A stretch of DNA of 64,000 bases, taken from positions 96,451,613-96,515,612 of the forward strand of contig NC_090381.1 of assembly GCF_036365525.1 (NCBI RefSeq). The letters run 5' to 3'. Made by a program: the position numbers and the translations under genes. Source of the DNA: Heterodontus francisci (taxonomy: Eukaryota). Below are positions 4,043-60,550 of this stretch, piece after piece. Numbering within the stretch: the stretch's first letter is position 1; the number at the start of each line of letters is the position of its first letter. A model generated the notes under the pieces. That model was not told the DNA's origin, did no database searches, and worked only from the letters and a program-made list of their open reading frames with translations.

Positions 4043-4062
4043 CTTGTGGCTGAGTTAAGGAA
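4043..4062 (-). promoter_or_regulatory. U12 branch point and 3' splice site
   Basis: Minus strand reads TTCCTTAAC (4062-4054) followed by TCAGCCACAAG and the exon. This is the exact U12 branch consensus at typical short spacing. Confidence 0.88.
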
Positions 4063-4644
4063 ATATTATGCAATTTCTGCTTTGAGATGAAATACATATT
4101 ATAATGGTTGTACTGATAAACTTCACAAGTATATATTACACATGTAACAGCATAGGCACACTTCATATTCGTTTGTTCAGATGGCAATTTTCTGAAATAC
4201 ATTGTGACGTTAGAGAATGTAGGCGAGCACCACTTAGGTGCTCTCTCTGTGGGGTAGAGGAATATACCACGGCATCACTAGACAAAGGCCTGCACTCTAC
4301 TAAACATTTGGGAGTGTAAAAGGCGTATTACTGTAGATTTGTACATGCACATATCTACCCTGAGTATAGGTGTGAAAACCATGAATTTCAAGATGTTATG
4401 TTACATGTGCATGGGCTGAGAGAAGTTAAAATACCATATTTTGTGCAGTAAATAAATAAACCTAGATATGCAGGGTATTATAGTAGATCAGATGTACAAC
4501 TGTAAGGTTCACTACAGGGTTAATAGCTGAAGCTGTGAGGTAAGATTGAGTAGAAGTGCTCCATTTCTCTTGTTATTTTATCTTATTGGCAGGTGCACCT
4601 ATCAAGACATTGTATGAGATGGAAAGTCTGACAATCTTCAGTTG

Positions 4645-5080
4645 GCTGCACTCTCGCCTTGGAGCCAGAAGAATGTGGGGTCAAGCCCCACTCCAGAGAC
4701 TTGAGCACATAATCTGACACTCCAATGCAGTATCGAGGGAGTGTCGCACTATTGGGGGTACTTTCTTTCCGATGAGATTTTAAGCCAAGGCTCTGTCTGC
4801 CCTCTCAGACAGGCAGATGTCTGATGTAAAAGACTACATGGCACTATTTAGAAGAGTAGGGTTCTTTTTTCCCTGTGTCCAGGCTAATATTTATCCCTCA
4901 ACCAACATCAATAAAAAACAGATTATCTGGTCATTATCATACTGCTTTTTGTAGGACCTTGCTGTGTGCAAATTGGCTGCCACATTTCCTACATTACAAA
5001 AGTGACTACTTTTCCAATTATCTAATTACTGCAAGTGCTTTGGAAAGTTCTGAGGTCACGAGTATTTTTAAAACTTTTAT
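4645..5080 (+). mobile_element. DeuSINE-like (SacSINE1/AmnSINE1-related) SINE
   Basis: tRNA-like head plus Deu-type core GATGAGATTTTAAGCCAAGG…GTAAAAGACTACATGGCACTATTT; homologous to 38355-38770 and 55120-55450. Confidence 0.7.
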
Positions 5081-5692
5081 TCTTTCTTTGAGCCGAGATG
5101 GGAGTACTGTGGCTTTTGCCAATAGGGTAGAGGAAGTAATACTGCAGTAGTCATGGGACTCTAACCAGTGATGCAATGCACAATTACTAGCAAAGGATTC
5201 AGTTACATTAACTCTAACTTGGGACTCACTTCTGTCACTATATTGTATACGATTTGTTTATCATTTACAATTAACATCAGCCGGACACAGAATCGGCTCA
5301 AGCATGAAATTGAACCATATATAACACTTACTAAAAGGCAGTGTAGTTCTGCCAGTTCATCCTCCCGTAGGCATGTAAGATGGTCACAAATAGGATCAAT
5401 AGTGTCTCTAAATATAGATTTTCTTGATTTGAGAGGGGTTTAATCTAAACACAAAATTGTTTTGTAAATACAAATGAAGAAGTCCTGCAACTAAAAAAGT
5501 TAATGCTCAGTTTTATTTGGTAAAGGCAGAGCATTACACAAACAAAAGGTTATCAGATTTGGTCCATTCGGCAAACAACAGCAACAATTGAAAAGCTCTT
5601 TTCTTCAGAACTGTCTCACTCTTTGAAAATTGAATGTGCTTATCCTCGAAAGATCAAAGCTTGTGTGAACTGTGATATTTCGAAGATACATG

Positions 5693-7152
5693 AGGGGTGA
5701 TTTTCAGCTGTTCACCTCCCGTTTCTAACCTGAAATATGGGTGGCCAGCAATTAAAAATCAGGTGTCCCTAATCCATTTATGTCCAAGGCCCATCTGGTG
5801 CAATTTTCAAGTGAGCCTGTAAATGGGGAAGTGTGCGTCATTCACTCTATGCTGTTAGCTTATTGAGATTGGGTACTAGGATAGGTCAGAGACTGGGAAT
5901 TCTGTGGCAAGCAACTCACCTCCTGACTCCCCAAAGCCTGTCCACCATCTACAAGGCAAAAGTCAGGAGTGTGATGGAATACTCTCCATTTGCCTGGATG
6001 GGTGCAGCTCCAACAACACTCAAGAAGCTCAACACCATCCAGGACAAAGTAGCCAATCTGATTGGCACGCCATCCACCACTTTCAACATTCACTCCCTTC
6101 ACCACTGACACACAACAGCAGCAGTGTGTACCATCTACAAGATGCGCTGCAGCAATTCACCAAGACTCCTTCGACAGCACCTTGCAAACAGGTGACCTCT
6201 ACCACCAAGGACAAGGGCAGCAGACGCATGGGCACACCACCACCAGCAAGTTCCCCTCCAAGCCACATACCATCCTGACCTGGAACTATATTGCTGTTCC
6301 TACACTGTCGCTGGGTCAAAATCCTGGAACGCCCTTCCTAACCACACTGTGGGAGTACCTGTACCAGATGGACTGCAACGGTTCAAGAAGGCGGCTCACC
6401 ACAACCTTCTCAAGGGCAATCAAGAATGAGCAACAAATGCTGGCCTTGCCAGCGATGCCCACATCCCACGAAAGGATAAATTAAAAAAATTATTGTGGTC
6501 AAACATTCTTTACTCGGTGCAGTCTGTATAGAATAATTATCATCTCTTGAGCTGTAAGGGCTGACTTCAACAAACAGCGGAGAATAGGTGGGCGAGATAT
6601 ACAGCACAGCTACTGCCTGTCTGTAGTCTTGTCGGTGGGAGTCACAAGCCAGTTAGAAACTAGTGCTTCATTTTCATTTTGCCGTGAGCTGTGGGTATCA
6701 AACGAGTGCACTGATGCAGCCCAGCAGTTCTGGGAGGGTGGAAAAATGTCCATTTTTCATGCTGAGCCAGCCAACAGTCAGAGCCTGGAGGGAGGTGAAG
6801 GAAAGAAAGCAATCCCGGAGGTAGGAGGGATGAGGCTAGGGGAAGGGCTTGGATGGGCTGACAACAGCCCTGTTTTTTTTGGTGGGCCTAGAAGGAGCAC
6901 TGGTGCACTTTGTGATGATCTGCTCATTTGTACCTTGAAATTGCAATCCTATGTATGTCACAAGCTCCCGATTTGCATAATTTAATGAAGCAACACCTCT
7001 TTCAGGTAAGCACCTGGGCTGCCCTTTTAAAGGCACTGGCCAATATGGCAGCATGTGGGATCAGAGTGGGAACAGGGCGGTAAGTGCAGCATTTTGAATT
7101 TAGTGCTGCTACCGCCACCTTCCCATCAATGGACCGAGTTAAAATTGGCCCC
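5693..7152. mobile_element. Putative Harbinger-type non-autonomous element interrupted by a LINE
   Basis: Ends AGGGGTGATTTT and AAAATTGGCCCC, both flanked by ATG. Could instead be two separate fragments. Confidence 0.4.
5880..6490 (+). mobile_element. 3' end of a CR1/L2/Crack-group LINE
   Basis: ORF 5833-6108 contains YKAKVRSVMEYSPFAW…LNTIQDK, followed by a 3' UTR and A-rich tail; same family at 8865-8957 and 20757-21092. Confidence 0.8.
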
Positions 7153-58923: not shown

Positions 58924-59015
58924 AATAAAAGCAAAATACTGTGGATGCTGGAAATCTAAAATAAAAACAGAAAGTTCTGGAAATACTCACAGAAAGGTCT
59001 ATGACCTTTCATCAA
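58924..59015 (-). mobile_element. Penelope-type short repeat fragment
   Basis: AATAAAAGCAAAATACTGTGGATGCTGGAAATCT…GACCTTTCATCA. Confidence 0.6.
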
Positions 59016-59279
59016 ATTTAAATGAGTGGGTCTGACGCCTGTTAAACTGGGTGATGCTGAGCACCGCAGGCACCAGCCCTACTCTGCTGTGGAATCTAAT
59101 GTCGATTCGCTCTGGTTGCCCAGAAATAAGTGAATAAATTTAAATAAAAATTGACGTGGAACTGGAGTGCTCCTTCTGGCTCCACAGGACTCCCAAGGGC
59201 TATTACTGGCCTGCAATCAGCCACACTCCCGTTGACTTCTCCCAACACCAACACAGTCCACCCCCAGCAAGACAAGCAG

Positions 59280-60010
59280 ATGAAATTGTATTGGAAAGGG
59301 TACAATTCTAAAGAGAGTGCAGAGGCAAAGAGACCTAGGGGTATATGTGCTTTAATCGTTGAAGGTGGCAGGGCAGGTTGAGAAAGTGGTTAAAAGGGCA
59401 TTTAGGATGATGGGCTTTATGAATAGAGGCATAGAGTATAAAAGCAAGGAAGTTAAGATAAACTTTATAAAACACTAGTTCGGCCTCAACTAGAGTATTG
59501 TGTCCAATTCTGGGCACCACACTTCAGGAAGGATGTGAAGGCTTTAGAAAGGGTGCAGAAAAGATTTACAAGGATGGTTTCAGGGATGAGGAACTTCAGT
59601 CCCGTGGATAGATTGGGGAATCTGGAGTTGTTTTCCTTTGAGAAGGTTGAGGGGAGATTTAGTAGAGGTGTTCAAAATCTTGACGTGTCCAGACAGAGTA
59701 GATAGAGCTCCCATTGGTGGAAGTGCCAAGAGCCAGAGAACACCGATTTAAAATGATTGGCAAAAGGTCCAACAGTGACATATGGAAAAACTTCTTGACA
59801 CAGCTAGTGGTTAGGATCTGGAATGCACTGCCCGAGAGTGTGGTGGAGGCAGATTCAATTGTGGTTTTCAAAAGGGAATTGGATAAGGGAAAAACTTGCA
59901 GGGCTACTGGGAAAGGGCGAAGGAGCAGGGCTAGCTGAGTTGCTTTTGCAGAGACCTGGCATGGACACGATGGGACAAATGACCTCCAGTACCCATTCTA
60001 TGATTCTATG
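59280..60010 (+). mobile_element. CR1 3' portion
   Basis: LVRPQLEYCVQFW-type sequence, VVRIWNALP, (ATTCTATG)n tail. Confidence 0.85.
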
Positions 60011-60541
60011 AAATTCATCCCCTTGAAAGTAGCACATTTCAGTAAAGTGTTGCATCAGCCCATTCAGTTAAAGTTTTCTGATCAAAGTCAGTTGCTTTTT
60101 TAAGTAGTATGTTGTACTTGATGTAAAAATTACTCTAGAATACTCAGAACTCTGTGCACTGTGCATAAATTGAAGAGTTCCATACATGTGCAAATGAAAA
60201 CTTGCGCACTAGCCCACACCTTTATGTATTAACATGAATGGTTAAAGGTGGTTAAAGAGTCCAGTGCATCCAGTACAAATTCCGTCAGCCCTTCTCTTGT
60301 TAGCAAATTGGTAAGTGGATTAGGATCTCTGACCTATCTTTTGAATTTGTGATCCCTGTACACTATTGCGAGGCGAGAGTGTTTATAATTTGAGCTTTGC
60401 AACATATGTGCATGTGTGTGTGTATGTTTTTATGTTTGTCTAGTGTACTGTAAAGCTTCATGGACATGTGTTATCCTATATATATAGATGACCTACTGCT
60501 AAATATATAGCAAACTGAAGCATAACTTACAGTTCACCAAA

Positions 60542-60550
60542 AAAAGATAC
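60542..60550 (-). promoter_or_regulatory. U12-type 5' splice site GTATCTTTT
   Basis: 8/9 match to the U12 consensus RTATCCTTT; poor match to U2 GTRAGT. Confidence 0.85.

What the first reader, a model, noticed from the sequence alone, without database searches (positions are those of the whole stretch)
4043..60550. A 56.5-kb minor-spliceosome (U12) intron makes up almost the whole window
Seen: two in-frame NHE9-like exons separated by 56,508 nt, with a GTATCTTTT donor, a TTCCTTAAC branch point followed by 11 nt ending in the AG, no pyrimidine tract, and a closer AG (TCAG) skipped. Established: these are U12 hallmarks, and endosomal SLC9A genes are known minor-intron hosts. Inference: the scarce U11/U12 machinery must pair sites across a very long, transposon-filled intron using a donor with a +6 C>T deviation, so this step may limit production of the full C-terminal tail.
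Basis: partly seen in the sequence, partly recalled or inferred. Interest (0 to 1): 0.7.

Follow-up and report, generated by a model that had tools for sequence, protein, structure and literature searches.

The report
Shark NHE9 minor intron with bypass
The long rare-type intron is real but ordinary, being the shark copy of an intron already catalogued, and longer, in the human and mouse NHE9 gene; the extra is a competing ordinary splice signal just inside it that, in a database gene model, makes a tail-less protein, likely as a low-level leak.

Summary
Observation confirmed; significance overstated. Window 60550→4043 (− strand) is intron 14 of a 16-exon, 484-kb shark SLC9A9/NHE9 gene: 56,508 nt, GTATCTTTT donor, TTCCTTAAC branch site, AG 12 nt after the branch A. 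The orthologous U12 intron is catalogued in human (94,503 nt) and mouse (89,207 nt). Here it is only the fourth longest of 15 introns, and human RALGAPA2 already pairs the same +6T donor with 60,680 nt.

This reproduces RefSeq isoform X2 letter for letter (549 aa, ends before exon 15). Read-through models in two other shark orders imply the +6T donor is shared. Human, sheep and mouse data show bypass of the same intron. The lost exon encodes residues that clamp a proposed autoinhibitory helix in horse NHE9.

No reads were obtained for either junction. Truncated models also arise at U2 introns, so leak is likelier than a regulated switch. No earlier scan note on SLC9A was found; a similar spare U2 donor was noted in ESRP on other DNA.

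The parts
60551..60633 (-). SLC9A9/NHE9 exon 14 (83 nt, ends in phase 2)
   Evidence: part of the model identical to P0018
4043..60550 (-). Intron 14, U12-type GT-AG, 56,508 nt
   Evidence: orthologue of catalogued human 94,503-nt and mouse 89,207-nt minor introns
60542..60550 (-). U12 donor GTATCTTTT (+6 T instead of C)
   Evidence: paralogs and introns 7 and 10 have +6 C; predicted U11 duplex -2.9 vs -5.6 kcal/mol with C
60531..60550 (-). 20-nt extension of exon 14 in RefSeq model X2
   Evidence: reproduces P0016 exactly
60525..60530 (-). Nested U2 donor GTAAGT at intron +21
   Evidence: first of 11 GTAAGT in the intron; used by model P0016
27428..60530 (-). Nested U2 GT-AG intron, 33,103 nt (annotated model, reads not seen)
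27405..27427 (-). Coding start and stop codon of the cryptic exon of model X2; its 3' end is unknown
   Evidence: the acceptor has a poor pyrimidine tract
26515..27476 (-). About 950-bp dispersed repeat, solo-LTR-like, that supplies the cryptic acceptor
   Evidence: 47 matches among 40 scored of 5,191 candidates; full-length copies 74-82% identical; other copies have TG...CA-type ends
26363..26368 (-). AATAAA followed by GU-rich sequence: candidate poly(A) signal for the cryptic exon (untested)
   Evidence: the intron has 34 AATAAA, so weak
4054..4062 (-). U12 branch site TTCCTTAAC
   Evidence: predicted duplex with the genome's own U12 snRNA -13.3 kcal/mol
4050..4053 (-). Skipped TCAG, too close to the branch A for U12 use
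   Evidence: optimum 11-13 nt per PMC6717393
4043..4044 (-). Acceptor AG
   Evidence: a contig from another species (run X8) matches from exactly 4042
3937..4042 (-). Exon 15 (106 nt), followed by a U2 donor; encodes the cytosolic segment matching NHE9 chains 8pxb/8pvr residues 528-561
33181..33199 (-). Decoy U12 acceptor: second TTCCTTAAC with AG 11 nt after the branch A; no use known
16913..19034 (+). Broken LINE (endonuclease and reverse-transcriptase fragments), antisense to the gene
   Evidence: PF14529 E=7.9e-7, PF00078 E=3.4e-10

Best explanation
This is intron 14 of a shark SLC9A9 (NHE9) gene, the orthologue of a catalogued vertebrate minor intron, likely removed in one step by the U12 spliceosome, with a competing U2 donor at +21 that likely leaks a minority of transcripts into a repeat-derived exon and a tail-less product. 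Shown from sequence and records: the signals, the frame, the gene model and the X2 junction. Inferred steps: (1) U11/U12 binds a weakened donor (+6 T gives a G-U wobble with U11) and a strong branch site. (2) Pairing across 56 kb is helped by exon definition with the flanking U2 sites, as established for minor introns generally; not tested here. (3) While the U12 acceptor is not yet transcribed, U1 sometimes takes the GTAAGT 20 nt downstream and the major spliceosome joins it to a weak acceptor in an inserted repeat. This adds a few residues and a stop. (4) The length reflects repeat accumulation in a 6-Gb genome and an intron position that is long in mammals too, not a special device.
For: The 16-exon model equals P0018 and the bypass model equals P0016, letter for letter. 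Three U12 introns (7 AT-AC, 10, 14) are present, as three are listed for human and mouse SLC9A9. Intron 14 ranks fourth of 15; the median is 22,129 nt. 4 of 188 human minor introns in the one table part read (part 8 of 9) are longer than 56.5 kb. U12 intron length tracks genome size, r=0.87 (PMC7367187). U11, U12 and U6atac genes are present. 196 of 219 fetched NHE9-family proteins have the direct junction. A 3,411-nt contig of run X8 matches 4042-3936 at record 1615-1721; my model has 1,607 coding nt upstream of that exon. For leak rather than design: the cryptic exon lies in a dispersed repeat; its acceptor is weak; bypass tails differ in every species; truncated models also end at U2 introns 12 and 13 (P0013, P0159, P0160, P0017); the nested U2 splice in human has PSI 0 in controls and 0.458 in Roifman cells (PMC6800510 supplement).
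Against: No reads spanning either junction were seen in this species. Runs X1, X5 and X2 gave essentially no cover of exon 15, and X8 is another species whose RNA status is a guess. The levels of the two isoforms are unknown. Against pure noise: the +6T donor is implied in three shark orders. A GTAAGT within the first 30 nt has about 0.6% chance at the intron's own frequency (post hoc). Wild-type mouse thymus shows cryptic-exon inclusion in the orthologous intron at 0.188, passing filters in 1 of 11 tissues (PMC6717393 supplement). No intronIC or MaxEnt score could be run.
Confidence: 0.7

Rival explanations
1. Regulated switch, SRSF10-like: the long intron, weak U12 donor and nested U2 donor are kept so that minor-spliceosome activity sets the ratio of full-length to tail-less, possibly de-inhibited NHE9.
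For: Bypass models at this intron occur in 3 of 10 shark species with records (P0016, P0015, P0007), human (P0143) and sheep (P0154). Their read-through is Tyr-Leu in the three sharks (+6 must be T) and Tyr-Pro in the two mammals (+6 C). The intron is long in shark, mouse and human, whereas paralogous introns are 15.6-16.0 kb here and no listed human or mouse SLC9A6/7 minor intron exceeds 11.8 kb. Mouse thymus inclusion is 0.188. Exon 15 carries the residues equivalent to horse L540/T541, which contact TM7 K301 in a proposed autoinhibitory helix (PMC11953442; alignment; the numbering offset is my inference).
Against: The internal exon is repeat-derived and the tails are not conserved. No such model appears in 7 batoid species or the chimaera records. 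Human controls show PSI 0. Conservation of the +21 donor could not be checked because the other sharks' stops fall before it. Whether the exon is terminal or triggers decay is unknown.
Confidence: 0.15
2. Model X2 is an annotation artefact (mis-mapped repeat reads or pre-mRNA), and the intron has no real bypass in this species.
For: The exon lies in a high-copy repeat. XP_ records are predictions and their read support was not visible. No shorter protein with the X2 tail turned up among 4 candidates (weak search).
Against: The junction obeys GT-AG with a six-of-six consensus donor and starts from unique exon-14 sequence 33 kb away. The same kind of event is measured by RNA-seq in mouse and in patient cells.
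Confidence: 0.1
3. The intron is removed stepwise (recursive or nested splicing) rather than in one U12 step.
For: Length; a perfect decoy U12 acceptor at 33199-33181; a nested U2 intron exists in model X2.
Against: 0 AG|RTATCC or AG|GTATCYT recursive U12 sites; the 5 YAG|GTRAG sites have only 7-11 pyrimidines in the preceding 20 nt; no U12 donor follows the decoy.
Confidence: 0.03
4. Frame-preserving twintron: the +21 U2 donor pairs with the skipped TCAG, adding 27 nt (9 residues) to full-length NHE9.
For: The combination is in frame without a stop (634 aa). Patient cells use nested U2 sites about 107 nt inside the donor and about 9 nt before the acceptor of the human intron. Human SLC9A7 is listed among twintron genes (PMC3564746; which intron was not seen).
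Against: 0 of 219 fetched proteins has an insertion at this junction. Depth in run X8 is fully explained by one contig starting at 4042 (contigs drop rare forms).
Confidence: 0.02

Closest known systems
Human SLC9A9 U12 intron chr3:143,268,981-143,363,483 (94,503 nt) and mouse Slc9a9 chr9:95,137,981-95,227,187 (89,207 nt), PMC6717393 supplement; also PMC6800510 Table S3
   Same: Same gene; last and longest of three minor introns; human read-through model P0143 leaves the frame at the same codon; cryptic-exon or nested-U2 use recorded (mouse thymus 0.188; Roifman cells 0.458).
   Different: The shark intron is shorter, has +6 T (human and sheep read-through implies +6 C), a U2 donor at +21 rather than about +107, and a repeat-derived exon.
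Human RALGAPA2 minor intron (60,680 nt; donor GTATCTTTT; branch site GTTTCCTTAACC), PMC6717393 supplements
   Same: Same +6T donor, strong branch site and similar length; the 54,435-nt mouse Ralgapa2 minor intron shows cryptic-exon inclusion passing filters in 3 of 11 tissues.
   Different: Unrelated gene; the donor-to-intron link is inferred from RALGAPA2 having one listed human minor intron (mouse has two).
SRSF10 nested U2-in-U12 module (as reviewed in PMC8329584, section 7)
   Same: Works like it: the minor pathway gives full-length mRNA; the major pathway includes an internal exon and truncates.
   Different: SRSF10's intron is AT-AC and its exon is regulated, with an enhancer and a shown poly(A) site. 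Here the exon is repeat-derived and no regulation or 3' end is shown.
Vertebrate twintrons (PMC3564746; 18 human genes including SLC9A7)
   Same: U2 sites nested inside a U12 intron position.
   Different: Those share the gene position with both ends near each other and are reported as conserved; here the U2 acceptor is 23 kb upstream of the U12 acceptor and conservation is unshown.

Membership tests
U12-type (minor) intron, GT-AG subtype | 5' splice site RTATCCTTT | tested here: met
   8 of 9 positions; +6 T is a catalogued variant (48 vs 959 occurrences; human UFD1); no U2 consensus at this GT
U12-type (minor) intron, GT-AG subtype | TTCCTTRAC branch site about 11-13 nt from the 3' end, no pyrimidine tract | tested here: met
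   TTCCTTAAC, AG 12 nt after the branch A
U12-type (minor) intron, GT-AG subtype | Position conserved with catalogued U12 introns | tested here: met
   paralogs on C6 and C15 have GTATCCTTT at the same codon; human and mouse SLC9A9 list three minor introns, the last 94.5/89.2 kb; P0143 reads through at the same codon
U12-type (minor) intron, GT-AG subtype | Minor snRNAs encoded and complementary | tested here: met
   U11, U6atac and U12 above Rfam cut-offs; predicted duplexes
U12-type (minor) intron, GT-AG subtype | Excision depends on the minor spliceosome in vivo | not testable with these tools
   indirect only: the human orthologue switches sites in RNU4ATAC patients
SLC9A9/NHE9 | Orthology over SLC9A6/7 | tested here: met
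   model identical to P0018 (NHE9-like); best PDB hits NHE9 then NHE6; two separate paralogs elsewhere; no tree or synteny test
SRSF10-type nested U2-in-U12 switch | U2 intron nested within the U12 intron giving a truncated product | tested here: met
   model P0016 reproduced; annotation only, no reads
SRSF10-type nested U2-in-U12 switch | Internal exon conserved across species | tested here: not met
   exon lies in a dispersed repeat; tails differ among five species
SRSF10-type nested U2-in-U12 switch | Poly(A) site in the internal exon and a regulated isoform ratio | not testable with these tools
   only a candidate AATAAA at 26368
Recursively spliced intron | Strong acceptor immediately followed by a regenerated donor | tested here: not met

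The most novel reading that the evidence does not exclude
SLC9A9 intron 14 is a vertebrate-wide splicing valve. It has been kept very long from sharks to mammals and, in several shark orders, given a weakened U12 donor and (in this species) a U2 donor 20 nt inside. Low minor-spliceosome activity then diverts transcripts into internal exons and yields an NHE9 that lacks the helix clamping it in an inhibited state. Minor-spliceosome status would thus tune endosomal pH.
Probability: 0.12. Interest if true: 0.65.

Novelty: new member of a known kind. Interest (0 to 1): 0.3.

Why it matters
As a long U12 intron it changes nothing: longer ones, including its own orthologues, are catalogued. The bypass is a tidy natural example of major-versus-minor spliceosome competition with an exonised repeat. 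If the tail-less form proved regulated and translated, it would link minor splicing to endosomal pH control, and it would point to an overlooked effect in RNU4ATAC disease, where the human intron switches sites.

Tried and rejected
RNA evidence: no holder is on record as RNA (no RNA holder listed). Of 4 runs laid on window 1-6000, only X8 covered exon 15 with a long piece; repeats swamped the rest. No read evidence was obtained on the donor side, so neither 60551→4042 nor 60531→27427 was seen in reads.

Protein search: a search for short proteins carrying the X2 tail gave 4 of 4 NHE6-like or unnamed hits and none with the tail; this is uninformative.

Non-coding RNA: Rfam over the window gave 0 matches at gathering score, so no hosted RNA family was found.

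ORFs: Pfam on 20 of the 38 stop-to-stop ORFs ≥120 aa gave only LINE domains and one sub-cut-off hit, so there is no sign of a nested gene; 18 ORFs were not scanned.

Ideas rejected: recursive U12 sites (none). The idea that the T-run offsets +6T holds only for U6atac in the model (-6.5 vs -7.1 kcal/mol), not for U11 (-2.9 vs -5.6). Exceptional length. Five bird records ending at the exon-14 boundary (P0163, P0167, P0168, P0170, P0195; four labelled partial) were not counted as bypass isoforms.

Literature: six paper searches listed no paper on shark SLC9A9 splicing or a tail-less NHE9 isoform; only listings were seen for most, so absence from print is not established. One supplement of PMC6800510 (an index file) was unreadable. 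Only 1 of 9 parts of the PMC6717393 length table was read in full.
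Full report
Observation. On the minus strand the window holds an 83-nt exon (60633-60551) and a 106-nt exon (4042-3937), separated by 56,508 nt. The intron begins GTATCTTTTT and ends TTCCTTAAC-TCAGCCACAAG; the exons join in frame. The used AG ends 12 nt after the branch A and the skipped TCAG only 5 nt after it; PMC6717393 (passages) gives 11-13 nt as optimal.

The gene. The genome is 6.01 Gb. The downstream exon's best solved relatives are NHE9 chains, then NHE6, and its closest database proteins are shark NHE9-like. 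Mapping one of them gave 16 exons over 484,276 nt. The joined frame is 625 aa, identical to RefSeq P0018, which NCBI labels Heterodontus francisci NHE9-like X1. Introns 7 (AT-AC, 13,868 nt), 10 (13,250 nt) and 14 have U12 signals. Intron 14 is fourth longest of 15, behind U2 introns of 97,172, 86,854 and 69,025 nt. Two paralogs have a U12 intron at the same codon with canonical +6C donors, 15,954 and 15,650 nt long. U11, U6atac and U12 genes are present.

Is the length or donor unusual? No. The supplement of PMC6717393 lists three minor introns for SLC9A9, the longest 94,503 nt in human and 89,207 nt in mouse (rows); PMC6800510 Table S3 lists the same human intron (row). In the one part of the human table read whole, 4 of 188 minor introns exceed 56.5 kb. 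PMC7367187 (section 18) reports that mean U12 intron length scales with genome size. GTATCT occurs 48 times against 959 GTATCC in the mouse+human splice-site table. Human RALGAPA2 has this donor and a single listed minor intron of 60,680 nt. At least 33% of the shark intron is repeated sequence, including LINE fragments. Duplex prediction with the genome's own snRNAs gives a weak donor (U11 -2.9 against -5.6 kcal/mol with +6C; U6atac -6.5 against -7.1) and a strong branch site (-13.3). These are model energies only.

Evidence that the acceptor is used. Run X8 (another species, RNA status guessed) has a 3,411-nt contig matching 4042-3936 at record positions 1615-1721 with 2 differences, and it accounts for all depth there. 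My model has 1,607 coding nt upstream, which fits a spliced message but does not show the upstream exon. Of 219 fetched proteins, 196 have the direct junction, 13 lack the exon-14 motif and 10 lack exon 15.

A GTAAGT lies at intron +21 (60530), the first of 11 in the intron. RefSeq X2 of the same species label (P0016, 549 aa) reads through the U12 donor, uses this U2 donor and joins an acceptor at 27428, 33,103 nt away, followed by a stop seven codons later. My model reproduces it letter for letter. The acceptor sits about 46 nt inside a roughly 950-bp dispersed repeat, whose other copies have LTR-like ends. An AATAAA lies about 1.06 kb downstream, but the exon's end is unknown. Carcharodon (P0015) and Chiloscyllium punctatum (P0007) have X2 models that stop three residues past the junction with Tyr-Leu-Phe; any Leu codon there requires +6 T, so the variant donor is implied in three shark orders. 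Human P0143 and sheep P0154 read through as Tyr-Pro, implying +6 C. Published RNA-seq shows bypass of the same intron. Cryptic-exon inclusion is 0.188 in wild-type mouse thymus, passing filters in 1 of 11 tissues (PMC6717393 supplement). Nested U2 sites are used at PSI 0.458 in Roifman cells and 0 in controls (PMC6800510 supplement). PMC4667643 (passages and supplement rows) names SLC9A9 among the most affected genes, but for its 1,570-nt minor intron.

What the bypass would remove. PMC11953442 (passages) describes horse NHE9 K301 bonding to L540 and T541 of a C-terminal helix proposed to be autoinhibitory. Exon 15 aligns to chain residues 528-561. With the construct starting at residue 8, these two residues fall in the first codons of exon 15 (my inference). 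A tail-less product would lack them and about 90 residues in all; its activity is untested.

Mechanism and odds. Most likely (0.7): one-step U12 removal, with minority leak through the U2 donor while the distant acceptor is still untranscribed. PMC6717393 (section 10) finds cryptic 5' sites and cryptic exons common around minor introns, more so in long ones. Against a designed switch: the exon is repeat-derived; tails are not conserved; such models appear in 3 of 10 shark species and 0 of 7 batoid species with records (a biased sample, at most 15 members listed per cluster); and truncated models also arise at U2 introns 12 and 13. For a switch (0.15): the shared +6T, the low chance of a consensus donor so close (about 0.6%, post hoc), and recurrence from shark to mammal. 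Artefactual X2 (0.1), recursive splicing (0.03; no sites) and an in-frame 9-residue twintron (0.02; open frame but 0 of 219 proteins) follow.

Comparison. It is a member of the U12 GT-AG class and the orthologue of a catalogued intron. The bypass works like the SRSF10 nested module (PMC8329584, passages and section 7 part 1; the primary paper was not read) but fails the conserved-exon test. It resembles twintrons (PMC3564746, parts 1-2 of 3) only loosely. A related case of premature polyadenylation in the PTEN minor intron was seen as a search listing only (PMC13141466). Earlier scan notes: none near this place; by words none on SLC9A, one on a spare U2 donor inside an ESRP minor intron.

Verdict. 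Real, correctly classed, ordinary in size and already known in mammals. It has a modestly interesting, annotation-level U2 bypass that RNA reads could settle. Interest 0.3.

Noticed in passing
window 33199-33181 (−): A second perfect U12 branch site with an AG 11 nt after the branch A sits 27 kb from the donor: a decoy acceptor that is apparently passed over. About chance-level for this length.
   Followed up: partly
L022 near 3575 (−), intron 12 of the gene: RefSeq X3 (P0013, 513 aa) uses a cryptic exon with a stop inside the 86,854-nt U2 intron 12: the same kind of truncation at a major intron.
   Followed up: partly
G000:C11:96761695-96757929 (L010), intron 5: GC-AG intron (3,767 nt) in a gene that also has AT-AC and GT-AG U12 introns.
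   Followed up: no
L005 (C15 paralog) and L015 (intron 10): Branch sites deviate from consensus (TTCCTTTAC in the C15 paralog; TTCCTTATG in intron 10) while their donors are canonical, the reverse of intron 14.
   Followed up: no
L037, start of the locus: A second, partial copy of the same 950-bp repeat lies about 600 nt from the first in inverted orientation.
   Followed up: no
G000 C40, C1, C8, C36, C13, C10, C19, C7: Eight U6atac matches above cut-off against one U11 and three U12 (lower bounds); several may be pseudogenes.
   Followed up: no
G000:C31:42699289-42699804 (+): An Na/H exchanger match lies in an 889-codon open frame, suggesting a largely intron-free or retrocopied SLC9 gene.
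   Followed up: no
window 200-2600 and 4637-5042, 5869-6495: Repeat families heavily represented in the guessed-RNA runs; they obscure read evidence in intron 15 and the 3' end of intron 14.
   Followed up: no
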